Virus record (IMG/VR): IMGVR_UViG_3300015360_000006 | Location: 1-52,003 of that record | Strand: one strand, 5' to 3' | DNA length: 52,003 nucleotides | Origin: a virus | Lineage: Duplodnaviria > Caudoviricetes | Notes under the pieces: model-generated | Database searches by the model: none | Seen by the model: only the letters and a program-made list of their open reading frames with translations | Told to the model about the DNA's origin: nothing | Shown here: positions 2,730 to 51,975 of the stretch, in pieces | How the letters are laid out: each line of letters starts with the position of its first letter | How positions within the stretch are numbered: position 1 is the first letter of the stretch | Translations under genes and position numbers: made by a program

Positions 2730-4196
2730 ATGAATACAGCATTGACACAAAAATTAGGGCAGACGTTAGTCTTGTCGCCGCAACTTCAACAGTCGCTGGC
2801 GGTCCTTGCGGCACCCGTACTGGAGTTGCGCGCGTTAGTCTCGAAAGAGTTAGAAAGCAATCCACTGCTCGAGTCGGTCAGCGATGTCGAGGAATCTGTG
2901 GAGGCGCGCGAGACTCGCGAAGATATGGAGGCCGCCATGGCCGATCCGCACGAGCCGCCGTTGGATGTGCAGTACGACCCGGCGAAGGAACCTGCGGCCG
3001 AAGACTCTGACTTCGACAAGGAGTTGCGCAGCTTATTAGAACTTGACCGCGACCTGTACGATTCACAATCGCTAGGCTCACTGAACACTTCATCGGATGC
3101 CGACGAGGAGCGCAGGCAATTCATGCTTGACTCGGCCAAGGCACCGCACACTTTGCAAGAGGAACTTGAGCAGCAGGTTCAAGGTATGCTCAATCTGACA
3201 TACGACGCTCGAGACGAGGCAATGGTATTTACACAGAACATTGATGAGCGCGGGTACTTGAATGTCCCATCAGATTTGTTCACTGAACATTTCATCGTGA
3301 GCATGCAGATGGTGCTTGAACCGCCGGGCATTGGCGCACGTAGCTTGCGCGAATCATTGAGGATTCAAACGATGCGCCATGCAAATCCCAACACGTTAGC
3401 GCTGTCTATCTTGGATTGGCACTTTGAGTTATTAAGTAAGCGCAAGTTTAATACAATTGCGGAGATTCTTGGTCTGGATTATGACGAGGTGTGCGATGCG
3501 TGCGCGTGGATTGCCAAGTTAAATCCCTATCCGGCGGCGCAATTCTACAACGCTGACAGCTCAGTTGTGACGCCAGAGCTTGATGTCGTTGCCGTCGCTG
3601 GTGTCATGGAAGTTCACCAACGCTCGGATTACTTACCCAATCTGCGCATAAGCAGTGGCGTCGCGCGCTTGGTAACTCATGCGGCGACCGACGCGACGAC
3701 GCGTGACTACATTCGCGAGAAGATCAGAGCGGGTAAGTTCTTCATCCGTAGTATTCATCAGCGACAGAATACAATTCTCCGCGTGGCAACTGAAATTGTA
3801 CGGCGGCAACATAATTTCTTTGCAAGTGGCAACGTCCTTGAATTACTACCGCTGACCATGTCGCAAGTTGCCGATGCCGTCGGCGTGCACGAGACCACCG
3901 TGAGCCGTGCGGTTTCCGGTAAGTACATGAGCACACCGCATGGAGTTCTTGAGTTGCGTTACTTCTTCTCATGCGGTGTGGCGAACGCGAGCGGAGTCGA
4001 CACGTCGAATCGCTCAGTCAAGTTGATGCTGGTGGAGATCATCGCGGGCGAGGACAAGAAGAATCCTTACTCGGATGAAGCCTTGGTTGCAGTATTGAAC
4101 TCCCGCGGCATGTGCATCGCCCGGCGCACGGCGGCCAAGTATCGCGCAGAGCATAACATTCTGCCGCGTCACTTGCGTGTAATTCATGGCACGTAG
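2730..4196 (+). CDS. rpoN: RNA polymerase sigma-54 factor
   Basis: Region I QxL...LSPQLQQSLAVL, NPLLE, IDERGYL, EPPGIGARSLRESL, HTH region PLTMSQVADAVGVHETTVSRAVSGKY, RpoN box ARRTAAKYR. Confidence 0.97.
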   Translation: MNTALTQKLGQTLVLSPQLQQSLAVLAAPVLELRALVSKELESNPLLESVSDVEESVEARETREDMEAAMADPHEPPLDVQYDPAKEPAAEDSDFDKELRSLLELDRDLYDSQSLGSLNTSSDADEERRQFMLDSAKAPHTLQEELEQQVQGMLNLTYDARDEAMVFTQNIDERGYLNVPSDLFTEHFIVSMQMVLEPPGIGARSLRESLRIQTMRHANPNTLALSILDWHFELLSKRKFNTIAEILGLDYDEVCDACAWIAKLNPYPAAQFYNADSSVVTPELDVVAVAGVMEVHQRSDYLPNLRISSGVARLVTHAATDATTRDYIREKIRAGKFFIRSIHQRQNTILRVATEIVRRQHNFFASGNVLELLPLTMSQVADAVGVHETTVSRAVSGKYMSTPHGVLELRYFFSCGVANASGVDTSNRSVKLMLVEIIAGEDKKNPYSDEALVAVLNSRGMCIARRTAAKYRAEHNILPRHLRVIHGT

Positions 4197-4202
4197 GCAG
4201 CT
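4187..4202 (+). promoter_or_regulatory. Sigma54 (-24/-12) promoter overlapping the rpoN stop codon
   Basis: TGGCACG-TAGG-CAGC-T with exact GG-N10-GC spacing, pointing into the SSB/replication genes. Confidence 0.7.
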
Positions 4203-4212
4203 TACCTATTTT

Positions 4213-35510: not shown

Positions 35511-35655
35511 ATTAGTTGAAACTTATCGGTGGAAATAAAAAAAAAACCACCGATGGATTAATTACGGGAACTTTTGAGGTTCACCGCAATATCACCATAG
35601 GTGGCTATTGCTGGTCTGCGAGAGACTCGCAGAATACTTACTCTAGGACTATTTT

Positions 35656-35672
35656 TGCTGGAAGTATGCCAA
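35656..35672 (-). promoter_or_regulatory. Sigma54 (-24/-12) promoter for the capsid gene
   Basis: Minus strand TTGGCATA-CTTC-CAGC-A (GG-N10-GC), immediately after the scaffold stop. Confidence 0.7.
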
Positions 35673-36962
35673 TCAATCGTCGTCGTCTTCCTGAAACTTA
35701 ATAAGCTCATCACCCGCGGTCGTCGGTTTGGCCACGCGCAGTGCAGGGGCGCCGGGCTTTGTGGTCAGTGCCGCAAGCTTGGACTTCAATGCGTTGATCT
35801 CCACTTGGCTTGCAGCAGCAAGTTTAAAATACTCCAAACGAGCTTTGGACAACATGCGAGTCTGTTGCGTATGGCGCAACACTTCAGGAGCTAGCGAGAA
35901 TGACTGCTCATAGATCTGACGCTCAGCCTCCGTAAGAGTCTTCTCATCGAACGTGGGAAAGAACTTCTTCTCAGCTTCGTCGAGCTGCGTATGGACCGCA
36001 CTGGTGGCTGCCTGATGTTCGGCTTGAAACTGACGGGTCATATGATTGACCTGCTGACCTTCGGATACAGCACTGTTGTACTGCTTCTGCAAATACAACT
36101 GAGCTTGAACATTGACGCGACCATCCTCATTCTTCAACGTCTGGATATTGTTATTGCTGTCAAGGAATTGGATGTCGTTGGCTTCGGCGGCGGCCAGAAT
36201 CTGGCGCTCATAGAAGGCTTCGAGTTGCCGGCACTCTTCAGACTTGGCTAGAAGTTGGCCAAACTTAGGATGCAGCACATAGCTTTCAGGATGCTCATAC
36301 AAATGCTCAGGACCTGTTGGCCGAGCCTTGAGTTCTGCAATCTCAGCAGTCTTAGCTTTGCGGTCGAGCGCAATAGCTTTAACTTTGTCGAACTGTGCAT
36401 TGGGAAGCTTCTTAAGAACTTCAACATCCTCCGGATCAAACACGGAGTAGTCGCGCCCGGCCGGCTGTCCGAACGCTGGGTTTGGTGCCTCGACTTCAGG
36501 TACAACATCAGGTGCGACCTCGGCCTCAACAGGTTCGTCGGCAGCCTTCTTCGCAATGTCGTCATGCGTGTCAGGAAAGTCATCATCCGACTCATCAAAC
36601 TTGATCTCCTCATTTCCCGGATCTGGCTCCTTGGCGACAGGCTCCTTGGCAACAGGCTTGGGCTGGGAGAATGGATCAGCTGGGGTAAGCTTACCATCCG
36701 GCCCAACCTTCATTGAAGTTGACTGAGCTTGTTGCTTAGGCGCCTGCGGCGCGGGCGCCTTCGGCGCCGGGACAACAACTTGGGACGTGAGGTTCGTCGG
36801 GGCAGGGACGGCAGGGGACGCGGCGGGTGGCGCGGGCGTCACGGCAGGCGCCTGCGGCGCTGCCGCTTGCGCGCCGGGAGATGATCTGCGGCCGGCGGAA
36901 TTAATACCTACCGGTCCGCTTGTTTCGACCGGGAGCGGAATCCTAATTGTATCATTAGACAT
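35673..36962 (-). CDS. Capsid scaffolding protein
   Basis: Pro/Ala-rich then acidic disordered N-terminus, coiled-coil C-terminus; between portal and capsid. Confidence 0.65.
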   Translation of the reverse strand: MSNDTIRIPLPVETSGPVGINSAGRRSSPGAQAAAPQAPAVTPAPPAASPAVPAPTNLTSQVVVPAPKAPAPQAPKQQAQSTSMKVGPDGKLTPADPFSQPKPVAKEPVAKEPDPGNEEIKFDESDDDFPDTHDDIAKKAADEPVEAEVAPDVVPEVEAPNPAFGQPAGRDYSVFDPEDVEVLKKLPNAQFDKVKAIALDRKAKTAEIAELKARPTGPEHLYEHPESYVLHPKFGQLLAKSEECRQLEAFYERQILAAAEANDIQFLDSNNNIQTLKNEDGRVNVQAQLYLQKQYNSAVSEGQQVNHMTRQFQAEHQAATSAVHTQLDEAEKKFFPTFDEKTLTEAERQIYEQSFSLAPEVLRHTQQTRMLSKARLEYFKLAAASQVEINALKSKLAALTTKPGAPALRVAKPTTAGDELIKFQEDDDD

Positions 36963-37200
36963 GACTGATGCTTTCTATCGCTTTAGTTAGTGTTGCTTGT
37001 TGGATTGATAAAACTCTTACGAAGCGATCGTCCTTTGACGGATCGATCGCCGCGGTCTGCAAAGCTTGAAGTAAGCCTGCGTTCTGCTCACTGAGGCGTT
37101 GGAGGATTTGCTGCGTCTCCGGGCGCTGGAGCCACGCCTCCTTGAGCGGCCGCGATACGCTGATCGACGGCCTGCTTGAGCTGTCCAAGTTGTTGCTCAT
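36955..37200 (-). CDS. Small helical head-assembly protein overlapping the portal 3' end
   Basis: EAWLQRPETQQIL...; its stop overlaps the scaffold start. Confidence 0.55.
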   Translation of the reverse strand: MSNNLDSSSRPSISVSRPLKEAWLQRPETQQILQRLSEQNAGLLQALQTAAIDPSKDDRFVRVLSIQQATLTKAIESISHV

Positions 37201-38854
37201 GTGGTTGCCATTCAGGTCTCAGTTGTCCAGTTTCATCAGTAACGGACTGCGCAACAACTGCGCCAAGTTGCTGAATCAGTTGCAAGTCAGGAGTCTGCAT
37301 CATCGCCGCAATGTACCTGTCAGAGTGCGCCGGATAGCGTTCGCGCAGATAGTCTGCCAAGAACACTTGGGCGGCCGGCGTAGTAGAAATGATTGCCCAA
37401 TCTTGTTGCATTGCGGCAATGCGTTCTTGGCGCTGCACATAATCTACGGCGCCGGCCGATTGGATAATGTACGTGGCGTCAAGCAGCGCCGGGTTGATGT
37501 CCAGCTTCAATGTTCCGCGCCACACGGCGGACTTAATAATCTCGTAAGCTTTGGTTACGATCTTACGCATTGGGATAGACAAATACAATACGGAGACGCT
37601 ATTGATTTGCGACATCGTCTGGTTAGCCGAGTTGACCTCGGTTGCCGTCTTGCGCGAATCCTGTCGATTGTTGACTGCCCAGGAGATCTGATTGTTTGCC
37701 GCAGAGTTTCCGGTGTCAAGATGATCCAATGCGCGGAACAACATGGCATCGGGCCACGGCGCCGCCCAAGCTTTCATAGGACGATCCCAAACTTTATTGG
37801 GCGAGATCGTCATGTCAGTTTGCTTGGCGACGCCGCCGGCAGTGTACGAACCTTCGGCCGGCGCCCATTGGGTCATCGACGCGGCGTAAGATCCATTGAT
37901 GCCGGCGGAAGTCAGAACGCTCAGGGCATCTTGAATGTAGAATGCCTTTGCAGCGTGTCCAGTTTGCTCGGACATCTTGCGCTCTTCGGTAATCGAAGGC
38001 GAGAACTGAACATAAGGATACTCAAACTCATGCTGCTCTTCGAATTCTACCTGCTCGACAAGTCCCATTCCGCCAGCAGGATCCACTACTTGTGAAGTAA
38101 CTTTCTTTCCGCGACCGTTGACAAATCCGATGGGCTGCGACAAAGGTTCGTTGACATCCTTTGAATACCACACCGCTTGGACAACTCCTGCAACCTTGAA
38201 CAAGCAGTGATGTATGGTGGCGAACGCCGCCGACCCGCCGCTGCACATAGACGCGACGTGAGCTTTGAGTGCCTCGATAGCTTCAATCTCAGTAAACGTC
38301 TGCGCAGCAACATAGCCATCAATGTCCACGATCGACATTGAGTATGCGCGCGCCACGATGGGTGATTGCTCAATTGATTCGCCATTTCGCGAGTAGAGCA
38401 AATTGTCGGCGCCGATGTGATTTACCGCAACGTGCCCGGGTTTCGTGGTATCGTATACGACTTCCACAAAGTCGGCACCGTGCAACAAACCGCCGTCGAC
38501 CCACCGGATGTAGTCAACTTCCCAATCTGGATACTTGAGAACTGTCGTGACAGCTTCTTCCAGAATATCAACAGGAAGATCAGATTTCACCACAGGCTGA
38601 AAAAGCCCCATGCGGCGCGAACCTGAAATGAACTGCAAGTAAGTGGGTACTTCGCGCGAGATGTTCTGGTCAATAACTCGCACGCCCACGAAAGTCTGGC
38701 CCGGCTGCAGTTTGCCAGACTTGCGCATTGCTTCGACATCAATGTCGTTCTTGCGCACGCGGCGATTGCTTTCAACCAAGCTTACGAAAGTCGTGTGATC
38801 GGCGTGCAGCTTGTTGAACTCTGTCTGGAAAGTTGACTTGTGGAGTAGATTCAT
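37088..38854 (-). CDS. Portal protein
   Basis: 588 aa after terminase; KTATEV motif, Q-rich tail. Confidence 0.8.
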   Translation of the reverse strand: MNLLHKSTFQTEFNKLHADHTTFVSLVESNRRVRKNDIDVEAMRKSGKLQPGQTFVGVRVIDQNISREVPTYLQFISGSRRMGLFQPVVKSDLPVDILEEAVTTVLKYPDWEVDYIRWVDGGLLHGADFVEVVYDTTKPGHVAVNHIGADNLLYSRNGESIEQSPIVARAYSMSIVDIDGYVAAQTFTEIEAIEALKAHVASMCSGGSAAFATIHHCLFKVAGVVQAVWYSKDVNEPLSQPIGFVNGRGKKVTSQVVDPAGGMGLVEQVEFEEQHEFEYPYVQFSPSITEERKMSEQTGHAAKAFYIQDALSVLTSAGINGSYAASMTQWAPAEGSYTAGGVAKQTDMTISPNKVWDRPMKAWAAPWPDAMLFRALDHLDTGNSAANNQISWAVNNRQDSRKTATEVNSANQTMSQINSVSVLYLSIPMRKIVTKAYEIIKSAVWRGTLKLDINPALLDATYIIQSAGAVDYVQRQERIAAMQQDWAIISTTPAAQVFLADYLRERYPAHSDRYIAAMMQTPDLQLIQQLGAVVAQSVTDETGQLRPEWQPHEQQLGQLKQAVDQRIAAAQGGVAPAPGDAANPPTPQ

Positions 38855-39033
38855 TAGTCTTCCTCTGTTTCGAACGGAATCATCTCATATCCGGGTGCTT
38901 TGGTTTCCGTAGTTTCGTCATCGGAAACTTCTCGCTCGTCGTCGATGGCGATTAAATCCGTGACGATTTCGTTTACTTCTTTCAGCTCTTCGGTGTTGAG
39001 ACCTTCAAGCATGGACTTAAGTTCAGCAATCAT
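38854..39033 (-). CDS. Small acidic protein (59 aa, not in the ORF track)
   Basis: ATGA overlap with terL and TAATG overlap with portal; MIAELKSMLEGLNTEELKEV...PFETEED. Confidence 0.7.
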   Translation of the reverse strand: MIAELKSMLEGLNTEELKEVNEIVTDLIAIDDEREVSDDETTETKAPGYEMIPFETEED

Positions 39034-40856
39034 TTGTAAATCAGGTTGTAAAATCCACTAACGATTAGTTTGCGCTCGACCATCGGATCAAAGTGTTCGG
39101 GCTCTTTGTAATTATCGAAAGCTCGATTCTCGTAATCTTGCACGAAGTGCGCCATACGTTCCTCCTTTGAGCCTTCGCTTACATTGTTTTCGGCGAGCAT
39201 TTCGGAAAGATCGTAGATAGAGTAAGCCAGAACGTAAGCGTCGGCGCAGTCTGGTGAAAATCCTAGGCGACCTTTCGCCTTCTTTTTGTCTTCCAGTTGA
39301 AGCTTCTGCTTCTCATTGGTGAAGAACTTACGCGTGGTAATTTGCTTCTTCCAGCGATCGTAGCATTCAAACTTGTGTGGCGGAATAATTTTACCCAGCT
39401 CAATCATTCGGCCAACTCGGAAGTACATCTCAGCGCCTATGTTCGCGTAATTCTCAGTGTTGAAAGCCGCCGATTGGTTGTTAACTCCGCGTATAGGATA
39501 GCCAGCTTCTTGCACGCGCCGCAAAATTGGCGCACCGATTCCGCCCATATCACCTGAGACATCTTCGTACTCGCACTTGAAATTTGACTTGCCGATCAAG
39601 AGTTGCTTGACAATCCAAGCGTGCAACTTGTTAGGAGAAGATGTAGTAATGACTGCGTGGTACAAGGGCTCATTGCCATGAACAATCCAGAACTCGGATA
39701 GATCAACGCCCAATCCAACGTCGAGCCCACCGGCCGGGCGCTGTCCCATTGTTTTCGCCGGCGGCGGAATGTAATCCAATCTCTCACCCGGAATGATGAC
39801 CTCTTCTGCGGATTCGTAGAACTCCGCCAAAATGCCTGTGCGATAGGGCGCAGAGTTCTCGCCGTGGTTCAGCCTAGTTTGCTCGATCGCCGCGGGCGAA
39901 ATGTTGGGACACTCAAACGCAGTGACACGGCGCGAGAAAGGAGTGCCCAGTTCGCACTTGGTAAACGAAGAACGCTCTACAGACTTGTAGAACTGACCGC
40001 ACCGCGCGCCGGGAGAAGATACCTGCAACCAATGAGAGTAACCATAGAAGCGCGAGAAAGCTTCGTACAGCGTATCTTTAATAGACTTAGCTTCACCGAT
40101 TACCACCATCATCTTCGATTCAGGGACTTCATAGAATGGGTGATAGCCTTCAACCTTTGATGGCTCGTCCGTACAGAATGCCCGCAATTCACTGCCCGTG
40201 TAATTGCACTTGATTGAGAATTCTTTTATGTCAAATACATCATCCTCGTGCAACGCATTGATTGTTTCGCACAGAGTTGAGATAGGCTTGAAGGTGTGCT
40301 CCTTAAGCTGGATATGCGACTCCGACGTGATGACTACGCGCGAACGCAGGTAGCGCATCATGAACCAAACTACTGTCGGCGTAATGATGTAAGTATCCTT
40401 ACCCGAAGAGTTGGCCGCCACCAGATTGTAAATGAATGGATTCTCTTTCGTCGGATCCTGCCACTCGCTGCGCGGCAGGCCTTCCAAATTCAAATCACCG
40501 CCCATGCGATGCTGTTCCTCTTGCTGCCATTCGTAGGGCTTAAGATGTGGATTGTAAGTTTTGAACAACACCAAAGGTGTCGGAAAGTCAAAGGTCTTAG
40601 GATTCGCGGGCCATGAGAATTTAGAGGACCGCGACGGCGCCGGGCGGTCCGCCCCCTCGGGTTCCCTGTCTTCCGGCGCGGCAGCGCCGGCCCGCGTCTT
40701 AAGCCCTGGAGAAGCGGGTACAGATTTGGGAAACTCGGCACCAAAGCCAGTGTCCACGCCATCGAACGCCGGATCGATTGCCGCCGAAGCGTGGGTAGAT
40801 TCCAGCGCCGCGCGCACCCGCAAAGCATTGAGCTGCTCTTCAGTAAGTTTAGGCAT
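39030..40856 (-). CDS. terL: Terminase large subunit
   Basis: PYEWQ, AANSSGKD, EGYH, VVIGEA, SSP, ILAEF, GLDVG, SPDCADA. Confidence 0.88.
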   Translation of the reverse strand: MPKLTEEQLNALRVRAALESTHASAAIDPAFDGVDTGFGAEFPKSVPASPGLKTRAGAAAPEDREPEGADRPAPSRSSKFSWPANPKTFDFPTPLVLFKTYNPHLKPYEWQQEEQHRMGGDLNLEGLPRSEWQDPTKENPFIYNLVAANSSGKDTYIITPTVVWFMMRYLRSRVVITSESHIQLKEHTFKPISTLCETINALHEDDVFDIKEFSIKCNYTGSELRAFCTDEPSKVEGYHPFYEVPESKMMVVIGEAKSIKDTLYEAFSRFYGYSHWLQVSSPGARCGQFYKSVERSSFTKCELGTPFSRRVTAFECPNISPAAIEQTRLNHGENSAPYRTGILAEFYESAEEVIIPGERLDYIPPPAKTMGQRPAGGLDVGLGVDLSEFWIVHGNEPLYHAVITTSSPNKLHAWIVKQLLIGKSNFKCEYEDVSGDMGGIGAPILRRVQEAGYPIRGVNNQSAAFNTENYANIGAEMYFRVGRMIELGKIIPPHKFECYDRWKKQITTRKFFTNEKQKLQLEDKKKAKGRLGFSPDCADAYVLAYSIYDLSEMLAENNVSEGSKEERMAHFVQDYENRAFDNYKEPEHFDPMVERKLIVSGFYNLIYK

Positions 40857-41235
40857 CGGTCGAAGGAGTTACATTCAGTGCAAGCTTGTGGCGAATGATT
40901 TTGGGCACCGCATTTTGCGCACATTCCAGCGCCGCAATTAATTGCAAAGACGCCAGCGCATTGATTTCGCGCGTCCGCGCCCGCGCATCATTGCGACCTT
41001 TTACTTCGTCCACCAACCACGTAAGGGCACTCATGCGCGTTTTGACCGCATTCTCTTTCCCAAAAGCGATGTGCTTCATTTCGAGAAGAATGGCCGGCAA
41101 GTCTTCAACGCCCGGCACGCCCAGCATCACGCGCACAGATTGCACTGATAAGTCTAAACCCGCCGCAATGTCCTCCGCCGAAAGAGAAGGGTCGCTCCGA
41201 GATAGTGCCAGAACTTGATCGTAGCCTGATGACAT
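40849..41235 (-). CDS. Terminase small subunit-like HTH protein
   Basis: N-terminal HTH LSAEDIAAGLDLSVQSVR; first late gene; start ATG 41235. Confidence 0.65.
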   Translation of the reverse strand: MSSGYDQVLALSRSDPSLSAEDIAAGLDLSVQSVRVMLGVPGVEDLPAILLEMKHIAFGKENAVKTRMSALTWLVDEVKGRNDARARTREINALASLQLIAALECAQNAVPKIIRHKLALNVTPSTDA

Positions 41236-41246
41236 GATTCGTTGGT

Positions 41247-41263
41247 TGCAGAGAGTGTGCCTT
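41247..41263 (-). promoter_or_regulatory. Sigma54 (-24/-12) late promoter
   Basis: Minus strand AAGGCACA-CTCT-CTGC-A (GG-N10-GC); predicted +1 near 41236, next to the terS ATG. Confidence 0.65.
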
Positions 41264-41377
41264 TGGATGGTTGTCAATTAGTTTATAGAGTTTCTAAAAT
41301 TTCAAAAATTTAAAAATTTAAGAGAATGTCTAGTTGTATTTCGCACTTCGTTTCTGGGGCTCCGTCATCACAAGCCT

Positions 41378-41414
41378 CTCGCCAAGCCTACCCTCGCCAT
41401 CCCATCCCTCGCCA
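41378..41414. repeat. Three CTCGCCA repeats with a 15-bp period
   Basis: Copies at 41378, 41393 and 41408. Confidence 0.8.
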
Positions 41415-41454
41415 CCCTTGTTCTCTCCCGACAGAAATGACAGGAATGATTCAA

Positions 41455-41700
41455 ATTGAACGTTCAATAGGGACTTAACGACTTAGGTTATATAGAATTG
41501 AATTATATATAGGTATAAGTGTGTTTATATATAAGTATAGGTATGTTATATTTATATAGGTATGTTTATATAAGTAAATAAATATATATATATAGGCATA
41601 TTAGTATACATTAATATATCAATTGGAAACGACATATAGATTAAAAAATACTTATATAATTCAACCTATATCCAAACTTTGAACCTATACCCTAGAATCT
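41455..41700. other. Very AT-rich non-coding region: candidate origin or packaging site
   Basis: Palindrome ATTGAACGTTCAAT (41455-41468), TA runs, repeated TATAGG(T/C)AT and inverted ACCTATA copies. Confidence 0.5.
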
Positions 41701-41809
41701 TCGACCAAGCGGCAAACCAAGGGAAAAAATCTTTTCCCCTTAAACCCTTGGTAATCAATAGCTTGGGGTGCCCAAAGGAGTGCCTTCTGAAAATAGTTCA
41801 AAGAAAGGG

Positions 41810-41838
41810 TTGCGTCCCTTGGCAGGATCTGCTAACCT
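41810..41838 (+). promoter_or_regulatory. Sigma70-type early promoter
   Basis: TTGCGT-N17-TAACCT with an extended -10 TG, 9 nt before the first early ATG. Confidence 0.6.
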
Positions 41839-41847
41839 ATAGGTGCA

Positions 41848-42033
41848 ATGAAGATCAACACTAACGAAACGGTAACGGCCAACGTGGCCGAAGATGTAAA
41901 GGAGACCCTGCGTCTCCTAAACGAAGCCATTGCGTTGCTAGACAAGGCAAAGTGTTACATGGTGACGGAAGAATCCGACCAACTGGAAGACGTGATTGAC
42001 GCACTTCGGAAAACCATTCACGAAATCAGGTAA
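41848..42033 (+). CDS. First early gene, small helical protein
   Basis: 61 aa, nearly leaderless after the sigma70 promoter. Confidence 0.7.
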   Translation: MKINTNETVTANVAEDVKETLRLLNEAIALLDKAKCYMVTEESDQLEDVIDALRKTIHEIR

Positions 42034-42043
42034 ACAAAGGGGA

Positions 42044-42330
42044 CTGGCCCCTTCTCAAGGTCCCCATGCGGGACTTTGAGAAGGTACCAGAAGGTACCTA
42101 GTGCCGTGACTCCCACGGACAAGATCGGAGGTTAGCAATCAAAGGATGCTGACTTCTACGAGCCGCAATAACGGCTCGCAACCGATCATTGAAATCTAGG
42201 AATCGGAAGTCGGAAATGATGCCTTGCTTTCGTAGCAAGATACTTTTCGGCCGAACAATTCCGAAGTAGGTGAATGGATTTCCTTCTATGCCTAGCGTTC
42301 CCATGTCGGGAGCGCGGACATAGAACAAGG
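42044..42330 (+). ncRNA. Highly structured intergenic RNA, segment 1
   Basis: Serial hairpins and a multibranch junction (GATCGG/CCGATC), CTTGCT-ttcg-TAGCAAG; no sizeable + strand ORF. Confidence 0.5.
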
Positions 42331-42838
42331 AAAAAAAAATCATGAGCAAAAACACGGAAGAAACCACGGCAGAAGAAACCACGGCCGCGGCAGAAGTTCT
42401 GGCGAGCGCGGAAGTCCGTGCCCGGCAGGCTCTGCCCCGTTTCCAAACGGAAACGGCTCTGCTAGTTGGACAGAAAGATGACGCAACCAGTGTTCAAGTG
42501 GTGAAGGCAATCGATGCCTTGCGTAGTACACTGGCAAAGGCTGCTAGTCGGTGCGCAGAGTCGGGAACGCTTTCTACAAGCCAGAAAAGCAAAGCAGGAG
42601 AGCGGAAATCGTCCCTGAAAGGGGCGAAGAGCTCCGGAGAAGATTCGGTCCCGATGGCCATTCAGGCCACAGTCACCCTCTTTGGCAAGGTTGCCAAAGA
42701 GACCGGCGGAGAGATCGACCGGATTCGGTTAGACTCCGAGTCAGCGTTGGCAATTCGGATTCAAGATTGGATCCGCGGGTTTTAAACCCAACATTCTAAC
42801 CCGCCTGAAAGGGCGGGCATAGAAGGAAATCCATTCAC
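42270..42838. repeat. 23-bp perfect inverted repeat (42270-42292 / 42816-42838) flanking one gene
   Basis: GTGAATGGATTTCCTTCTATGCC ... GGCATAGAAGGAAATCCATTCAC. Confidence 0.9.
42342..42785 (+). CDS. Early hypothetical protein (147 aa)
   Basis: AAGGA RBS; EETTA repeat at the N-terminus. Confidence 0.75.
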   Translation: MSKNTEETTAEETTAAAEVLASAEVRARQALPRFQTETALLVGQKDDATSVQVVKAIDALRSTLAKAASRCAESGTLSTSQKSKAGERKSSLKGAKSSGEDSVPMAIQATVTLFGKVAKETGGEIDRIRLDSESALAIRIQDWIRGF

Positions 42839-43100
42839 GGCGCGACAACGCAAAGTCTCCGGTTCTAGTCGCGCTTTAGAAATTCACCCTGACAAGGTGC
42901 AAGCGGAAACTCTGGGCAACGCGCCAAGAGGAAAAGCCGAAGTACTTCGGGCAACGCAGACAATATGCTATTCGCCCGGATGAAATCAGAAATGCAAGCT
43001 AAGGCTTGCAAGACTGGCTTTCCCCTTTAAGCGCATCAAATCTACCCCAGCGCGTTCTTTCTCAAGCACTTAGCCATATGCTAAGTGCTTGGGAAAGGAT
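42794..43100 (+). ncRNA. Highly structured intergenic RNA, segment 2
   Basis: Stems GCGCGAC/GTCGCGC, TGCAAGC/GCTTGCA, CGGGC/GCCCG, and a long terminal hairpin at 43054-43100. Confidence 0.5.
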
Positions 43101-43105
43101 ACGAA

Positions 43106-43312
43106 ATGACAGGCCATGAAGTGCTTGCCCGTCTTAGGGCAAGCGCGTCAATCGGCCGTCACGCTACGTTCAACCTTGAACGTAGCGTGACGGTCAGGGG
43201 CTTCGTACAGATTACGAAGCCTGTCAGTCGGCGAGCCGCCAAGTCGGTTGGCTCGCGCACCTTGACTCTCAAAGTCAAGAACTGGCAAATCACAGCCGCG
43301 CACTTTAACTAA
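43106..43312 (+). CDS. Early small basic protein
   Basis: GAAAGGA RBS before ATG 43106. Confidence 0.65.
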   Translation: MTGHEVLARLRASASIGRHATFNLERSVTVRGFVQITKPVSRRAAKSVGSRTLTLKVKNWQITAAHFN

Positions 43313-43327
43313 GTGCGCGGTCTTTTT
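43294..43327 (+). terminator. Early intrinsic terminator
   Basis: GCCGCGCACTT-taact-AAGTGCGCGGT then CTTTTT. Confidence 0.7.
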
Positions 43328-43379
43328 GCGTCCTTTCAAGTCTGCTCTCAAGTTTGAGGGCAGATAGGAAAGGAACAAA

Positions 43380-43856
43380 ATGCCCTCAAAAATCAGCACG
43401 TGGAACAATCAGCAAGGAAGCCGTGGGCGCTCGGCGCTCGCGGTGTTGGTGACTCCTGATGGAAATGTCCATCAGTTTCGTGGGGAATCGATTCCCCAAG
43501 TGTGTCACTCAGTGGTGACGGATCGCGAGAAGAAGGGCGCGTGGAGTAACTGCACGTTCGCCATCACGCATAATGACCAGACGAAATTTGTGTCGTGGCG
43601 GCAGGATTGGGACACCGGGCGCGACTGGCCCGGCTTGAGCTGGGAAACCAACATTGCGTGGCTTCAGGCGCTTGCACCGCAGGCAACCGAGGTCGGATTC
43701 CGGGCGTACATCGCACGGGAGCATCCCAAGGTTAGAACACGCTTGGACGAGTTCTATATCGCTGTAGGAGAGTTTGATCTTCCGGCGGTTCCGGTGATCC
43801 CAGAGATTCCCATGGAGATTCCGGCGGTCTCAGGATTCCGGAACACCGTCATGTAA
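43380..43856 (+). CDS. Early hypothetical protein
   Basis: GAAAGGA RBS; 158 aa. Confidence 0.75.
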   Translation: MPSKISTWNNQQGSRGRSALAVLVTPDGNVHQFRGESIPQVCHSVVTDREKKGAWSNCTFAITHNDQTKFVSWRQDWDTGRDWPGLSWETNIAWLQALAPQATEVGFRAYIAREHPKVRTRLDEFYIAVGEFDLPAVPVIPEIPMEIPAVSGFRNTVM

Positions 43857-43877
43857 AAAAAACAAACCAACAAACCA

Positions 43878-44076
43878 ATGACAGAACGGGAAGTAGTCCA
43901 AGCACTTGTCATCATGGGACGCGGCTTATAAGTCTATCGCCCGCAAAGCACCGCCTTTGCGAGCGGATGTTTTCAATGCATTCATCCACACGTACTATCC
44001 GGAACATGCTGAAAAGTTGGACTGGTACGACAATGCGGTCGCAGAGTTCGAAAACCCACTGAAAAGAAAGGAATAA
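43878..44076 (+). pseudogene. Frameshifted or TTG-started paralogue of the C-terminal half of 43380-43856
   Basis: The ATG 43878 frame stops after 17 aa; the +1 frame (43906-44076) reads SSWDAAYKSIARKAP...FNAFI...LDWYDNAVAEFENP. Confidence 0.55.
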
Positions 44077-44077
44077 A

Positions 44078-44398
44078 ATGACAGATCAATGGACGCAGGA
44101 AGAAGCGGTGCAACTTTGCACCGAAATCGAGAAAATCTGCACCAAGTATGGGTGCCACGTGGCACTGACCGGTGGACTGCTGTACAAGGCCGGTCCACGG
44201 AAGGATTGCGACCTGCTATTCTACAGGATCAGGCAATGGGATGAAATTGACATGGAAGGTCTGTGGGCTGGACTGTCAATAATTAGAATCAAACAAACAA
44301 GCGGATTTGGTTGGTGCTACAAGGCAACGTACAGAGGGAAGAAGATTGACTTCTTCTTCCCAGAGGAAGAAGGAGAAGAATATGTCAAACATGAATGA
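44078..44398 (+). CDS. Minimal nucleotidyltransferase-like protein (Pol beta fold)
   Basis: VALTGG.......KDCD plus a distal IDFF; GAAAGGA RBS. Confidence 0.65.
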   Translation: MTDQWTQEEAVQLCTEIEKICTKYGCHVALTGGLLYKAGPRKDCDLLFYRIRQWDEIDMEGLWAGLSIIRIKQTSGFGWCYKATYRGKKIDFFFPEEEGEEYVKHE

Positions 44399-44759
44399 AC
44401 AAAAAGAAAGCGTAGAATACCTGCGCGTCTACGCCCTCTTAGTCAACGCTCGCGAAAACTCACGAGAGGCCAACATCGCGCTCGCCAATTCCAATTGGAT
44501 GAGAAACGATTTGCAGAAAAGAATTGCCGAGCTCAAAACTTGTGCCGACAGTCTGCTGTCGGAATACCTACGCCTCTGTGAAATGTTAACCATGACTGAG
44601 GAACAGGTGAAAAAGGATAACAGCGCACACGTCGCCGCTCGAGCGATTGAAAACGATCTTCAAAAGAGAATTGCTGAGCTCACATCTTGTGATGAGAACG
44701 GCGAAAGCAACTACAACGACCACGAAGTGGAAAACGACAACAACAACAACAAAACATGA
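44382..44759 (+). CDS. Coiled-coil hypothetical protein
   Basis: NDLQKRIAEL occurs twice; start 44382 or 44391. Confidence 0.65.
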   Translation: MSNMNEQKESVEYLRVYALLVNARENSREANIALANSNWMRNDLQKRIAELKTCADSLLSEYLRLCEMLTMTEEQVKKDNSAHVAARAIENDLQKRIAELTSCDENGESNYNDHEVENDNNNNKT

Positions 44760-45160
44760 GTAACGTAAACAACAAAGCGGAACGCGCCCATTGGGTGGCG
44801 CGTGAACTATTGACCGGTATTGAGAATGACGGTGACTTCGCAGGAATGGATGTCGCCACGGCGCTGGCAGGGCGCGAATGCCCTCCAAAGGAACACATCG
44901 TCGAACGCTTGATTTGGAACGCCGATTGGCGGGCCAAGCTCAAGGTCATCCGCGCCGACGCCCAAATGAGGGCACTGAATGCCGTGGATTACGCGTATAC
45001 TGCCCACGCTTCGCAACCTGCTGCGCAAATTTACGACGCGCTTGCGCTCGCGGTCAGAGAGGCTAATGACCTGCGTACGCAGGTTAGTAAGCTGCATTAT
45101 GCAGCAGCCCGACTTCCACCAAAAGAGAATACTCTTTTTTGGATCAACGCAAGAAAGTAA
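44756..45160 (+). CDS. Hypothetical protein
   Basis: ATGA overlap. Confidence 0.65.
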   Translation: MSNVNNKAERAHWVARELLTGIENDGDFAGMDVATALAGRECPPKEHIVERLIWNADWRAKLKVIRADAQMRALNAVDYAYTAHASQPAAQIYDALALAVREANDLRTQVSKLHYAAARLPPKENTLFWINARK

Positions 45161-45163
45161 CAC

Positions 45164-45580
45164 ATGAAATACAAAAATGTGGATATCCGAGACTTACTCC
45201 CAGACGAACGTCCAAGGCTGCCGGAGTGGATTAAGGTCAAGTGGATTGCAGCTTTAAGGAGTGGCACCTACGAGCAAGGCATGAAGTCATTGCGCAAAGA
45301 CACCGCTTATTGTTGCCTCGGAGTGTTATCCGAGTTGCAGGGGAGGTTATTGTGCCATAGAAACGGATGGATTGACGGAGATAACGCGCTCCGCGATGGG
45401 TCGTTGGCGACAGACAACCCGCTGAATGAAATCTTGAATTACTCTGGTATACTGGCGGTGACGGTTTACCTAACAGTAGAAGGCTCTGAGTTTGTGTCGC
45501 ATTGCACAAGTTTGGCAGCACTCAACGACGCAGGTGCAACCTTTGATGAGATCGCATGGGTGATCGACAACGTATTCTGA
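45164..45580 (+). CDS. Phage hypothetical protein (WIAALRSG.Y.QG...CCLGVL family)
   Basis: Recurrent phage motif; ends LNDAGATFDEIA..I. Confidence 0.75.
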   Translation: MKYKNVDIRDLLPDERPRLPEWIKVKWIAALRSGTYEQGMKSLRKDTAYCCLGVLSELQGRLLCHRNGWIDGDNALRDGSLATDNPLNEILNYSGILAVTVYLTVEGSEFVSHCTSLAALNDAGATFDEIAWVIDNVF

Positions 45581-45581
45581 T

Positions 45582-45923
45582 ATGAACAAAGAACAAGCAA
45601 TCATGCTCATAGCGCATGAAGACTCGGTGGAAATCGATGAGCTTACCACCAACTGGCAGGATTACGGTGACAATGTTGCCACGACGCATGTCAAAGGACG
45701 CGCGTGGGTACTGGTCAACGGAGCTGTCTCACGACTCGGTCACGGCTTCTACAAGAAGGCGTTCAAATGGGTTGAGCATCCTCTGAGTTTCGAGGATTGG
45801 TGTGTCGAATCGGATGTAGCGGATAACTGTGGATACAAGCGTCAGGCATTCATCGAATACCTGACCAGGTGCAACAACCCACCTAACAGAAAATGTGTTG
45901 ACATCTGGCGTGACCAACAATAA
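45582..45923 (+). CDS. Hypothetical protein
   Basis: 113 aa in the operon. Confidence 0.65.
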   Translation: MNKEQAIMLIAHEDSVEIDELTTNWQDYGDNVATTHVKGRAWVLVNGAVSRLGHGFYKKAFKWVEHPLSFEDWCVESDVADNCGYKRQAFIEYLTRCNNPPNRKCVDIWRDQQ

Positions 45924-45927
45924 CAAT

Positions 45928-46035
45928 ATGAACAACAACGACCACGACGACAACGACAATATTCGCATTGCATTAGACTGTATTGGGGTGATCCTTTTAT
46001 TCTGCGCCGCAATCATGTTCTTTGCTGTACCCTGA
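45928..46035 (+). CDS. Small TM peptide 1 (35 aa)
   Basis: MNNNDHDDNDNIRIALDCIGVILLFCAAIMFFAVP. Confidence 0.6.
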   Translation: MNNNDHDDNDNIRIALDCIGVILLFCAAIMFFAVP

Positions 46036-46036
46036 T

Positions 46037-46174
46037 ATGAAAAACTTTAACAAGGATCCAATATGGATCATCACTTTGATCATCATGCTTATGGGATGGG
46101 GCATTAGCATTCTCACTGTCATCGCTTGCGTAGGCGGTGCGGTTTATCTAATCAGGGAATTTATCCTCAAATGA
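46037..46174 (+). CDS. Small TM peptide 2 (45 aa)
   Basis: MKNFNKDPIWIITLIIMLMGWGISILTVIACVGGAVYLIREFILK. Confidence 0.65.
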   Translation: MKNFNKDPIWIITLIIMLMGWGISILTVIACVGGAVYLIREFILK

Positions 46175-46299
46175 AAGACGATCTCAACGACCCAATGAAT
46201 ATTTTTACAATCTTTGTCATGTTCATGGCAGGTGTCTCCATAGTTTTAGGAACCGTACTTGGTGTGCTCCTTCTAGTCATTGAAATTGTCAAAGGCTAG
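46171..46299 (+). CDS. Small TM peptide 3 (42 aa)
   Basis: MKDDLNDPMNIFTIFVMFMAGVSIVLGTVLGVLLLVIEIVKG; ATGA overlap. Confidence 0.65.
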   Translation: MKDDLNDPMNIFTIFVMFMAGVSIVLGTVLGVLLLVIEIVKG

Positions 46300-46463
46300 G
46301 CTTGTGGACTTGGGACGCGCTTCGCGCGACAACTGGAAAGTAAAGTTCGTGTGGTCTGGGCTGCGTGCGTGAGTCGTGGTGCGGCTTGCTTCGCGCTGTC
46401 GCGCTCGCGCCGCATGGAACTTATCAAGTAGCACTTATCAATGGAACTTAGCAGAAAGGAAAC

Positions 46464-46763
46464 ATGACAAAAGAATATGTGTTAGTCATACTGGCTGGGC
46501 TGGTCAGAAATTATGCTCACCAAAAACTTCTCAATGGTAAATATACCGATGGCCGGACTCTACGTTACGCCGTGATCGGATCCTGCATCATTCTGGAGCA
46601 GGCACAGGCCCAGACGGTTCCAAAAACCGGTATCGCGGTCCGCAGCATGTACTTGATCGCTATGGTCACAGTATTCAGCGAGGAAATCGTGAACAAAGTG
46701 TCACAGGAGTTCGCACTTATCGTCGTGAGTATGGGATTGTTCGCTTTGAAAGAAAGTAAATGA
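46464..46763 (+). CDS. Hypothetical protein
   Basis: GAAAGGA RBS. Confidence 0.7.
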   Translation: MTKEYVLVILAGLVRNYAHQKLLNGKYTDGRTLRYAVIGSCIILEQAQAQTVPKTGIAVRSMYLIAMVTVFSEEIVNKVSQEFALIVVSMGLFALKESK

Positions 46764-46764
46764 G

Positions 46765-46941
46765 ATGAAGTACTTAGATCCAAGGGTGGGCGAGGAGCCC
46801 AAAGTCCGCACAGATGCGCATCAAATGGTCGCCAAGGCCATGCGCTCGTGGGCCGCACGGCGCGCCGCCGCCGGCCGACCACTCACAACCGATGGCCCGC
46901 GCCGCTCGCGCGGTGTCAACTATAGGAGAAGCTCCAAATGA
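46765..46941 (+). CDS. Small Arg-rich protein (58 aa)
   Basis: Fills the gap between neighbours; ATGA overlap with the next gene. Confidence 0.5.
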   Translation: MKYLDPRVGEEPKVRTDAHQMVAKAMRSWAARRAAAGRPLTTDGPRRSRGVNYRRSSK

Positions 46942-47150
46942 GTGACGAATGGAGTCCACGCGTAGGTGCAGCGCAGGCCGCCGCACTGGGTGCAATGCAC
47001 TCGGCACTGCGCATTGCCGCAACCACGGGCCGCACCACCGGCCCGGAGTTCGATCGTGTCAGCGCACTGGTGCGTGAGCGAGACGACATTATACTGGATG
47101 AAAGTGAGTTGACACCCGAATGTCTCGGGCAATTGGCTGGCGGTAATTGA
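46938..47150 (+). CDS. Hypothetical protein
   Basis: AGGAG upstream; 70 aa. Confidence 0.6.
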   Translation: MSDEWSPRVGAAQAAALGAMHSALRIAATTGRTTGPEFDRVSALVRERDDIILDESELTPECLGQLAGGN

Positions 47151-47175
47151 TAGAGTAGTCTGCTCCCATACAGGC

Positions 47176-47192
47176 TTGGCACGCACATAGCT
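47176..47192 (+). promoter_or_regulatory. Sigma54 (-24/-12) middle promoter
   Basis: Intergenic TTGGCACG-CACA-TAGC-T with a perfect -24 element and GG-N10-GC spacing. Confidence 0.75.
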
Positions 47193-51126: not shown

Positions 51127-51975
51127 ATGCCCGTAACAATTAAGACTGGACACAAGCTGCCCTATGCAGTAGCAAGCGAGGCGTTCAAGACACGAGCGCG
51201 CATGACACGGGACGGCAGACTCGTTGAAAACAGTTACATCACGGACGATCCGTTCACGCTCAGCCAGCTTAGCTTGATTGATCAGGTGCGTGATCTCAAC
51301 ATGTCGGTCCTGATAACAGGTGAGTCGGGCACCGGCAAAGATATTATGGCCAAGCGACTCGGCCATCGGCACACGCTGGATGCTAGCGGGTTGCACACTA
51401 TGGCCAAGTACATCTCCGTCAACTGCGCAGGCATCACGGATTCACTGTTCGAGTCCGAGATGTTTGGCCACATCAAGGGATCATTCACCGGTGCACTGCG
51501 CGATCGCGCTGGATTCTTTCAAGCGGCGCACGGCGGCACGTTATTCCTTGACGAGATCGGCGATCTGCCTTTGCACCAGCAAGCTAAGTTGCTGCGTGTG
51601 CTAGAGAACAAAACGGTTACGCCAGTCGGCAGCACCGAGGAGATTCATGTGTCGCCTCGCATTGTGTGTGCTACCAACAAGAACTTAAGGCAAGCTATTA
51701 TTGCCGGAGAGTTTCGAGAGGACCTCTATTACCGCATCGCACAAGTTGTGGTATCAACCATCCCGTTACGCATGAGGTCGACGGATGTTGTGCTCATTGC
51801 CAACGAGATCATTGCGACGAATGACTGGACGCCGTTGGCTTCCAACGAGACCATTCCTACATGGGCCTACTCGCGCGGCAATGTTCGCCGCTTGTACGCT
51901 TGCATTCAACTTCGCGAACTCGGCCTTCAATGGGATGAGATCGCCGAACAATGGGACTGGAGTGCTAATGCCTAA
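51127..51975 (+). CDS. Sigma54-dependent transcriptional activator (bEBP), AAA+ domain only
   Basis: VLITGESGTGKD, VNCA, ESEMFGHIKGSFTGA, GGTLFLDEIG, QAKLLRVLE, ATN, FREDLYYRI, GNVR; no receiver domain and no C-terminal HTH. Confidence 0.95.
   Translation: MPVTIKTGHKLPYAVASEAFKTRARMTRDGRLVENSYITDDPFTLSQLSLIDQVRDLNMSVLITGESGTGKDIMAKRLGHRHTLDASGLHTMAKYISVNCAGITDSLFESEMFGHIKGSFTGALRDRAGFFQAAHGGTLFLDEIGDLPLHQQAKLLRVLENKTVTPVGSTEEIHVSPRIVCATNKNLRQAIIAGEFREDLYYRIAQVVVSTIPLRMRSTDVVLIANEIIATNDWTPLASNETIPTWAYSRGNVRRLYACIQLRELGLQWDEIAEQWDWSANA

What the first reader, a model, noticed from the sequence alone, without database searches (positions are those of the whole stretch)
35656..47192. Four sigma54 promoters at operon heads share a non-canonical -12 element
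Seen: 47176+ TTGGCACG-CACA-TAGC-T; 4187+ TGGCACG-TAGG-CAGC-T; 35672- TTGGCATA-CTTC-CAGC-A; 41263- AAGGCACA-CTCT-CTGC-A. All have exact GG-N10-GC spacing, lie in intergenic DNA or at gene ends, and point into the downstream genes (middle operon, SSB/replication, capsid, terminase). None has the canonical TTGC, and three have YAGC. Inference: the phage RpoN may have shifted -12 specificity, which would separate phage promoters from host promoters.
Basis: partly seen in the sequence, partly recalled or inferred. Interest (0 to 1): 0.85.

Follow-up and report, generated by a model that had tools for sequence, protein, structure and literature searches.

The report
Phage sigma-54 promoters, variant -12 element
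An uncultured 52-kb phage that carries its own sigma-54 factor and activator has four real-looking sigma-54 promoters with an unusual base next to the -12 GC, but related phages lacking the sigma gene use the same variant, so it is probably not a private phage code.

Summary
All four sites are present as described. Their total number is no higher than in shuffled sequence. Position and conservation support them instead. A matrix built only from 11 sites in relatives ranks them as the top four of about 104,000 window positions. The same promoters sit before the same genes in phages with 57-74% protein identity. The packaging and capsid promoters recur in much more distant relatives.

The window is a complete phage genome. 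It encodes a full sigma-54 (rpoN) and an activator (bEBP) with no DNA-binding domain.

The odd -12 element (A at -14) is real and specific to this clade: A in 9 of 15 sites, against 1 of 16 in distant relatives.

Sister phages have the same A-type promoters but no rpoN. The phage RpoN helix that reads -12 is identical in all 118 closest bacterial homologues scored. A conserved bacterial promoter beside those rpoN genes also often lacks T at -14.

Best reading: a sigma-54 middle/late programme whose promoter dialect host sigma-54 can also read.

This scan has noted phage sigma-54 promoters and minimal activators before on other DNA.

The parts
47176..47192 (+). P_mid: sigma-54 promoter TTGGCACGCACATAGCT. 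It heads the operon 47266 -> helicase -> bEBP -> nuclease -> Sak4-like -> rpoN. Predicted start about 47203.
   Evidence: Top score (18.6 bits) with the matrix from relatives. Orthologous sites in G003, G004, G005 and L008.
4187..4203 (+). P_ssb: sigma-54 promoter TGGCACGTAGGCAGCTT overlapping the rpoN stop codon. It is followed by a roughly 290-nt conserved leader and the DUF669/SSB-like gene at 4492. Predicted start about 4213.
   Evidence: Orthologous TGGCAC-N5-TAGCTTA at the end of thyX in G003, G004 and G005.
35655..35672 (-). P_capsid: sigma-54 promoter TTGGCATACTTCCAGCAA, 147 nt before the 430-aa gene 34218-35510 (probable major capsid protein). Predicted start about 35645.
   Evidence: Orthologous sites 131-158 nt before the homologous gene in G001, G002, G003, G005, G011, G013 and L133, and 112 nt before it in G006. 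Terminator-like hairpin at 33684-33661 two genes downstream.
41246..41263 (-). P_terS: sigma-54 promoter AAGGCACACTCTCTGCAA. The GC lies 12 nt before the ATG at 41235 of the gene preceding the large terminase, so the mRNA is predicted to be leaderless or nearly so.
   Evidence: Same GC-N12/13-ATG geometry in G001, G002 and G003. Identical in L004 and L005. Large terminase assigned by PHROGs.
2730..4196 (+). rpoN: 488-aa sigma-54 with activator-interacting, core-binding and DNA-binding domains. HTH helix HETTVSR, RpoN box ARRTAAKYR.
51127..51975 (+). bEBP: 282-aa AAA+ sigma-54 activator. Loop reads GSFTGA. No receiver domain and no DNA-binding domain.
   Evidence: no HTH family even at E <= 1; phrog_7998, function unknown.

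Best explanation
The four sites are genuine sigma-54 (-24/-12) promoters. They run the middle genes (helicase-activator-recombination-rpoN operon; SSB/replication) and the late genes (packaging; capsid) of a complete 52-kb phage. RNA polymerase carrying sigma-54 docks on them as a closed complex. The phage's own activator, which has no DNA-binding domain, opens them from solution without enhancers. The phage also supplies its own sigma-54, and both that gene and the activator gene lie behind P_mid, so the circuit reinforces itself. The A at -14 (YAGC in place of TTGC) is a promoter dialect of this phage clade. It is shared with sister phages that have no rpoN, so host sigma-54 reads it too. 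It is most simply explained by weak constraint on -14 in the sigma-54 clade the phage gene came from, plus shared descent of the promoters. The captured rpoN most likely adds sigma-54 supply rather than a new specificity.

Shown: the sequences, their positions, their conservation, the gene content and the identity of the helix. Inferred: the dependence on sigma-54 and the activator, the start sites, the feedback loop and the role of rpoN.
For: - The window is a complete phage record with 123-bp terminal repeats.
- RpoN has all three Pfam domains, and the bEBP has only the sigma-54 interaction domain.
- A matrix from 11 relatives' sites ranks the four sites 1-4.
- 5 of 22 motif hits fall in the 4.3% promoter-competent positions, P = 0.002.
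- Orthologous promoters occur in G001-G005, which share 64-71% nucleotide identity with the window in the stretches that align.
- Capsid promoters recur in G006, G011 and G013, and packaging-gene promoters in G006 and G013. These share only 24-33% identity in the homologous proteins.
- No Sigma54_DBD match in 13 related records out of 17 screened. The 13 are G001-G008 and G010-G013, including G006 and G013 (100% complete) and G011 (95%), plus, by tblastn only, G... none further; the records with rpoN are the window, G009 and G014-G016.
- G001 and G005 are 99.4% identical over 30.5 kb, and together they cover about 47.8 kb without rpoN.
- -14 base: core clade A 9, T 5, C 1 of 15; distant relatives T 15, A 1 of 16; Fisher P = 0.002.
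- The HTH helix is identical in 118 of 118 homologues in which it was found.
- In 76 bacterial metagenome contigs carrying the nearest RpoN type, 50 have a divergent sigma-54-like promoter about 50 nt upstream of rpoN. Its -12 reads TCGC in 25, TTGC in 11, TGGC in 5 and CCGC in 3.
Against: - There are no transcription data. No RNA run holding this DNA was listed.
- The total motif count equals the shuffled expectation.
- G003-G005 are incomplete (51-82%). An rpoN in the unsequenced early region of the G001/G005 phage is not strictly excluded; only G003 covers that region.
- The sites counted for the -14 table were partly chosen by me, and orthologous sites are not independent, so the Fisher P value is indicative only.
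- A at -14 is rare (2 of 50) in the one bacterial promoter family I could sample. 'Weak constraint' therefore explains non-T better than it explains the preference for A.
- The phage RpoN sits on a very long branch (2.0 changes per site against about 0.1-0.3 for bacteria). Altered properties outside the helix cannot be ruled out.
- The host is unknown.
Confidence: 0.7

Rival explanations
1. The phage RpoN has a shifted -12 specificity (YAGC instead of TTGC), so phage promoters and host promoters are read by different sigma-54 proteins.
For: None of the four sites has TTGC and three have YAGC. The phage RpoN is highly diverged, with a branch of 2.0 changes per site. It has a unique V to A change in the RpoN box, seen in 2 of 117 sequences. 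A second rpoN-bearing viral lineage (G014-G016) also lacks T at -14 in 3 of its 4 sites.
Against: Sister phages without rpoN use the same YAGC promoters for essential operons. There is no difference in -14 use between the rpoN-bearing and rpoN-less genomes at the four shared promoters. The -12-reading helix is identical to 118 of 118 bacterial homologues. The RpoN-box change concerns the -24 reader, and the -24 elements are canonical.
Confidence: 0.08
2. Functional tuning. A at -14 weakens the tight sigma-54 contact at the -12 fork junction. This would let promoters be opened more easily by an activator that has no DNA-binding domain and acts from solution. The variant would then be selected, but it would not be a private code.
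For: The A is retained at P_mid and P_ssb in all three diverged lineages (G000, G003, G005-type), while -15 and the spacer vary. The activator lacks any DNA-binding domain. It is my recollection, from no call, that work by Wang and Gralla around 1998-1999 showed that -12-region bases set basal and activated levels.
Against: Distant relatives G006, G011, G012 and G013 have similarly short activators yet keep T at -14 in 15 of 16 sites. At the capsid and packaging promoters -14 changes freely (A/T and T/A/C) among close relatives. That looks like drift.
Confidence: 0.15
3. The four matches are chance look-alikes or some other phage signal, not sigma-54 promoters.
For: The total number of motif matches is what shuffled sequence gives. 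There is no expression evidence.
Against: They rank as the top four with an independent matrix. They are conserved at orthologous gene heads across 57-74% protein identity and beyond. They co-occur with a phage activator in every related record that covers that region, and with rpoN in this one.
Confidence: 0.05

Closest known systems
Bacterial enhancer-dependent sigma-54 promoters (consensus TGGCAC-N5-TTGCW; examples recalled from no call: glnAp2 with TCGC, nifH with CTGC)
   Same: GG at -24 and GC at -12 with exact spacing. A sigma-54 with region I, an HTH and an RpoN box. An AAA+ activator with a GAFTGA-type loop (GSFTGA).
   Different: All components are phage-borne. A is at -14 in 3 of 4 sites. 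No activator DNA-binding domain, so no enhancer is expected. One promoter abuts its ATG, which predicts a leaderless mRNA.
Pseudomonas aeruginosa phage YuA
   Same: It is a phage whose development needs sigma-54. Passages in PMC5053324 say YuA is strictly dependent on host sigma-54 and call such use rare. A passage in PMC10914365 reports one sigma-54-like YuA promoter (P015) found by cappable-seq.
   Different: In those passages YuA uses the host factor, and neither a phage rpoN nor a phage activator is mentioned. The original paper (PMC2238194) was not held, so I could not check it.
Activators without a DNA-binding domain (H. pylori FlgR, Chlamydia CtcC, Rhodobacter FleT; these names are recalled and also appear in scan notes e1-6337811 and e1-6286161)
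   Same: An AAA+ sigma-54 interaction domain only, presumed to act from solution.
   Different: The phage protein also lacks a receiver domain and is encoded by a virus. No sequence comparison with those proteins was made here.
Engineered orthogonal sigma-54/promoter pairs (PMC12096077; abstract and passages read)
   Same: The idea that a changed sigma-54 can read a changed promoter.
   Different: [quoted passage not shown] Here the RR of the RpoN box and the -12 helix are unchanged, and rpoN-less relatives share the variant promoters.

Membership tests
sigma-54 (-24/-12) promoter | GG and GC dinucleotides exactly 10 nt apart | tested here: met
   4 of 4 sites.
sigma-54 (-24/-12) promoter | Extended consensus TGGCAC at -24 and TTGCW at -12 | tested here: inconclusive
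   -24: TGGCAC in 2, TGGCAT in 1, AGGCAC in 1. -12: TTGC in 0 of 4 (TAGC, CAGC, CAGC, CTGC). The consensus is a preference and not a requirement (recalled).
sigma-54 (-24/-12) promoter | Upstream of and co-oriented with genes, in non-coding DNA or at gene ends | tested here: met
   4 of 4 sites. 5 of 22 motif hits fall in 4.3% of positions, P = 0.002.
sigma-54 (-24/-12) promoter | Conserved at orthologous positions in relatives | tested here: met
sigma-54 (-24/-12) promoter | A cognate sigma-54 and an AAA+ activator are available | tested here: met
   Both are encoded in the window.
sigma-54 (-24/-12) promoter | Transcript start 11-13 nt after the GC, dependent on sigma-54 and the activator | not testable with these tools
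   No RNA holder was listed. An experiment is needed.
Private (orthogonal) sigma-54/promoter pair | DNA-reading residues of the sigma differ from the host-type protein | tested here: not met
   The -12 helix is identical in 118 of 118 homologues. The only change found is V to A in the RpoN box.
Private (orthogonal) sigma-54/promoter pair | Variant promoters are confined to genomes that carry the variant sigma | tested here: not met
   G003, G004 and G001/G005 have YAGC promoters and no rpoN.
Private (orthogonal) sigma-54/promoter pair | Host sigma-54 cannot use the variant promoters, and the reverse | not testable with these tools
   Needs binding or reporter assays. The host is unknown.
bEBP (sigma-54 activator) | AAA+ sigma-54 interaction domain with a GAFTGA loop | tested here: met
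   PF00158 at E = 3e-58. The loop reads GSFTGA.
bEBP (sigma-54 activator) | C-terminal HTH that binds an enhancer | tested here: not met
   No HTH family even at E <= 1. It belongs with the subgroup that lacks a DNA-binding domain.

The most novel reading that the evidence does not exclude
A family of uncultured tailed phages runs its middle and late genes on sigma-54, using its own enhancer-less activator. Two of its lineages have captured and rapidly evolved their own sigma-54 genes of the HETTVSR type. This sigma-54 type, in phages and in its bacterial relatives, reads a -12 element in which -14 is free or shifted (NAGCT/TCGCT rather than TTGCT). That would give natural, compact sigma-54/activator/promoter sets partly insulated from canonical sigma-54 systems.
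Probability: 0.2. Interest if true: 0.8.

Novelty: new variant of a known kind. Interest (0 to 1): 0.66.

Why it matters
Phages are known to bring their own sigma-70-family factors. The passages I read call phage use of sigma-54 rare and name only YuA, which relies on the host factor. My searches found no report of a phage-encoded sigma-54 or activator.

Here a whole phage family appears to time its replication, packaging and capsid genes with sigma-54 promoters and a minimal activator. At least two lineages also carry rpoN.

This gives a small, self-contained, testable sigma-54 switch: factor, activator and four to seven promoters. It also gives a natural series for asking how much the base at -14 matters. 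The comparison corrects the tempting idea that the odd -12 element marks a private phage code.

Tried and rejected
- Megablast of 25 kb of the window against cultured phages found no match.
- tblastn of RpoN and of the bEBP against the phage collection gave only records that look like bacterial contigs filed as phage, or short unannotated pieces. None looked like a relative.
As a result I could not count promoter variants in whole Verrucomicrobiota genomes.
- A fifth candidate at 20241(-), CGGCAC-N5-CCGC, lies in promoter-competent DNA but is not kept in G004 or G005. That gap looks like conserved hairpins, so I rejected it as a promoter.
- The window has no counterpart to three extra sister-clade promoters (heads of the 48092 homologue, of the polymerase N-half and after the ligase).
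- The sigma-70 scan gave no more hits than shuffles (17 against 14.0 +/- 3.5), and the terminator scan gave 27 against 20.5 +/- 4.5.
- Rfam found no family and ARAGORN found no tRNA.
- The TAGC site in bacterial contig L105 lies inside a 372-aa ORF, so I dropped it.
- Sequencing runs: no RNA holder was listed. Four DNA holders were listed (one microbial mat metagenome, possibly the source, and three freshwater metagenomes), and I did not lay reads.
- RpoN tree: both phage lineages fall inside the bacterial HETTVSR clade on very long branches. The careful search did not finish, and one capture versus two cannot be decided.
- Literature: searches found no paper on a phage-encoded sigma-54 or bEBP. 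The Francke 2011 passages gave nothing on Verrucomicrobia. The YuA paper was not held. Supplements were not consulted.
- The capsid-alignment scan added only two new contigs, L132 and L133.


Full report
WHAT THE WINDOW IS. The 52,003-base window is a whole virus record with 123-bp direct terminal repeats. Genes on the + strand run from about 42342 through the end and on to 13908; these are the early, recombination and replication genes. Genes on the - strand run from 41277 down to 14078; these are the packaging, head and tail genes. The gene at 2730-4196 encodes a 488-aa sigma-54 with all three Pfam domains: activator-interacting, core-binding and DNA-binding. The gene at 51127-51975 encodes a 282-aa AAA+ sigma-54 activator. 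It has only the sigma-54 interaction domain, its loop reads GSFTGA, and no HTH family matches even at E <= 1. No cultured phage is similar. PHROGs has no family for the RpoN, and it files the activator under phrog_7998, function unknown.

THE OBSERVATION. The site at 47176-47192 lies in the gap before the gene at 47266. The site at 4187-4203 overlaps the rpoN stop codon. The site at 35672-35655 begins just after the stop of the upstream gene and lies 147 nt before the 430-aa gene that I take to be the major capsid protein. The site at 41263-41246 has its GC 12 nt before the ATG at 41235, the start of the small gene ahead of the large terminase.

Counts alone are unconvincing. GGCAY-N5-NNGC occurs 22 times against 21.5 +/- 4.6 in 200 dinucleotide-preserving shuffles. 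The tighter pattern fitted to the four sites occurs 4 times against 2.7. Bare GG-N10-GC occurs 488 times.

Placement is not random. 5 of the 22 hits fall in the 4.3% of positions that are non-coding and within 320 nt upstream of a co-oriented gene (binomial P = 0.002). Four of these are the claimed sites. The fifth, at 20241(-), is not conserved in relatives and sits in what looks like a hairpin-rich spacer.

RELATIVES. Scans of viral contigs with RpoN, the large terminase, the activator and the capsid protein gave three kinds of relatives:
- near-identical fragments (L002-L005, L008, L132; 95-99% protein identity);
- a sister group at 57-74% identity (G001-G005, L133);
- distant relatives with 24-42% identity in the activator, capsid, portal and terminase (G006, G010-G013).

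G001 and G005 are 99.4% identical over 30.5 kb and are the same phage. G004 and G002 are about 84% identical to it, and G003 is about 75% identical. The window aligns with these only in the better-conserved stretches, at 64-71%.

Gene order is shared. In every sister genome that covers the region, a GGCAY-N5-NNGC site sits at the same four heads:
- before the homologue of 47266;
- at the end of the gene preceding the SSB-like gene;
- 150-153 nt before the capsid gene;
- 12-13 nt before the ATG of the small packaging gene.

Upstream flanks are not alignable, but the GG and GC blocks are kept. The capsid and middle-operon sites also have conserved leaders downstream.

A position matrix built from 11 sister-clade sites, none of them from the window, ranks the four claimed sites first to fourth among about 104,000 window positions, with 18.6, 13.7, 12.6 and 12.4 bits against 11.5 for the next. 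The matrix sites were picked with the same loose pattern. The fair comparison is therefore that the top four of the window's 22 pattern hits are exactly the four claimed.

In the distant relatives G006, G011 and G013, sigma-54-type sites again stand 112-158 nt before the capsid gene. In G006 and G013 they also stand before the packaging genes, and they occur just after the activator gene. I conclude that these are real promoters and that sigma-54 control of packaging and head genes is old in this phage family.

THE -12 ELEMENT. In the core clade (window, G003, G001/G005) the base at -14 is A in 9 of 15 sites, T in 5 and C in 1. TTGC occurs in 2 of 15. In the distant relatives it is T in 15 of 16 sites and A in 1 (Fisher P = 0.002).

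Two cautions apply. First, I took all hits flagged intergenic, plus several at gene ends or lying over small or opposite-strand ORFs that I judged spurious. Second, orthologous sites are not independent.

P_mid and P_ssb keep the A in all three core lineages. The capsid promoter has A in the window and T in G003 and G005. The packaging promoter has T in the window, A in G003 and C in G001 and G002. So -14 also drifts.

DOES THE PHAGE RpoN EXPLAIN IT? No Sigma54_DBD match was found in G001-G008 or G010-G013. These include the complete G006 and G013 and the 95%-complete G011. Only G009, a near-copy of the window, has one. tblastn with the window's RpoN also found nothing in G001-G006.

In G003, G004 and G005 a thymidylate synthase gene lies between the Sak4-like gene and the SSB-like gene, where the window has rpoN. 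The P_ssb promoter overlaps the end of that gene, just as it overlaps the end of rpoN in the window. G001 plus G005 cover about 47.8 kb, all but the early region. G003 covers the early region and has no rpoN. The sister phages therefore almost certainly use host sigma-54 on YAGC promoters that head essential operons.

The window RpoN aligns with E. coli sigma-54 across the HTH and the RpoN box. Its recognition helix, GVHETTVSRAVSGKYM, is the same in all 118 closest homologues in which my pattern found the helix. The first HTH helix differs slightly (VADAVG against VAEVVG). The RpoN box has one unique change, ARRTAAKYR against ARRT[VI]AKYR.

Those homologues are about 50% identical to the phage protein. 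Where they are named, most are labelled Verrucomicrobiota. On a quick tree the phage protein sits inside that bacterial clade on a branch about ten times longer than the bacterial ones.

I also took 79 bacterial metagenome contigs that carry this RpoN type. Of the 76 with at least 60 nt upstream, 50 have a sigma-54-like promoter about 50 nt upstream of rpoN that points away from it. Its -12 element reads TCGC in 25, TTGC in 11, TGGC in 5 and CCGC in 3. A is at -14 in only 2. So T at -14 is not required in the sigma-54 clade that the phage gene came from, although A is not favoured there either.

A SECOND rpoN-BEARING LINEAGE. An RpoN-alignment scan of viral contigs found G014-G016. They encode a compact 429-432-aa RpoN with all three domains, followed by the helicase and a 42%-identical activator, and then the same recombination and replication gene order. 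Their sites read TGGCATCCAAGAAGCTCT, TGGCACACTTTAGGCTCT (20 nt before rpoN) and CGGCACCGATCTCGCTTC. G014 adds one TTGCT site. So -14 is A, G, C and T in turn. This fits a sigma-54 type that cares little about -14. It does not fit a specific A-reading factor.

MECHANISM PROPOSED. Early host-type transcription reads into the activator and rpoN genes. The activator then opens P_mid, which lies upstream of both, and so reinforces itself. It also opens P_ssb, P_terS and P_capsid. These steps are inferred. With no DNA-binding domain, the activator should need no enhancer. The GC-N12-ATG geometry at P_terS, kept in G001, G002 and G003, predicts a leaderless or nearly leaderless mRNA. The captured rpoN most likely raises or secures the sigma-54 supply.

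COMPARISON WITH WHAT IS KNOWN. Passages in PMC5053324 call phage use of sigma-54 rare and cite YuA as strictly dependent on host sigma-54. A passage in PMC10914365 reports one sigma-54-like YuA promoter. My searches found no paper on a phage-encoded sigma-54 or activator. That covers only the held library, and the original YuA paper was not held. Engineered orthogonal sigma-54 pairs change R456 and the -24 element (PMC12096077, passages); that is not what is seen here.

WITHIN THIS SCAN. Notes on sigma-54 promoters in phages are common: 88 findings in at least 82 genomes. One follow-up (e1-6286161) already described a 53-kb phage with a minimal activator and promoters before recombination, packaging and capsid genes. 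My look-up by RpoN sequence found only this genome.

VERDICT. The promoter reading is supported. The 'shifted specificity of the phage RpoN' reading is not supported. The finding is a new variant of a known kind, and it is of good interest mainly because the phage carries the whole sigma-54 switch.

Noticed in passing
L044-L122 (bacterial metagenome contigs); for example L058:9920-9939 (-): 50 of 76 contigs carrying HETTVSR-type rpoN have a sigma-54-like promoter about 50 nt upstream of rpoN, pointing away from it. Its consensus is roughly TTGGCACGAATCTCGCTTT. In L058 it is followed by about 270 nt of non-coding DNA and then an ECF sigma gene (Sigma70_r2/r4), a likely anti-sigma gene and a 1460-aa membrane protein.
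   Followed up: partly
L123-L125 / G014-G016 (for example L124:5102-6400): This is a second viral lineage with a compact 429-432-aa RpoN that has all three domains. The gene sits directly upstream of the helicase and a 42%-identical activator, and the replication module is syntenic with the window's. Whether rpoN was captured once or twice could not be decided.
   Followed up: partly
window 4197-4491: The roughly 295-nt non-coding leader after P_ssb is more conserved than the flanking genes (97% against 95% in L002 and L003). It has several hairpins and five or six CAAAA repeats abutting the ATG at 4492. Sister phages also have a long leader with a hairpin at this place.
   Followed up: partly
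window 35511-35645 (-): The capsid leader is strongly conserved across the core clade (AGAGTAAGTA...CGAGTCTCTCG...AGCCACCTATG) and includes a short hairpin. A terminator-like hairpin at 33684-33661 follows the capsid gene and one small gene.
   Followed up: no
window 20137-20413: This intergenic gap among the tail genes holds two copies of the palindrome GTGCCGGCAC and several GCCGGC-containing hairpins. It is partly alignable with G004 and G005, which lack the exact palindrome. Its function is unknown.
   Followed up: partly
G005:40245-40258, 27966-27979, 30123-30136 (also in G004 and G001): The sister clade has three further sigma-54-type promoters with no counterpart in the window. Two have canonical TTGC. 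One, before the homologue of 48092, again has GC-N12-ATG, the leaderless geometry.
   Followed up: partly
window 8182-8895 versus G005:31641-32351: The thymidylate synthase gene sits between the Sak4-like and SSB-like genes in the sister phages, the slot that rpoN occupies in the window. In the window it lies about 4 kb further on.
   Followed up: no
phage collection hits H2-H54: Many records filed as phage that match RpoN or the activator look like bacterial contigs. Examples are 'Acinetobacter phage MD-2021a' contigs of up to 305 kb carrying glnG, atoC and rpoN, and Salmonella whole-genome contigs.
   Followed up: no
window 41278-41330: The DNA just upstream of P_terS is AT-rich with phased A/T tracts (AAATTTTTAAATTTTTGAAATTTT). 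G003 has a similar tract. It could be bent DNA or a binding site for a host bending protein.
   Followed up: no
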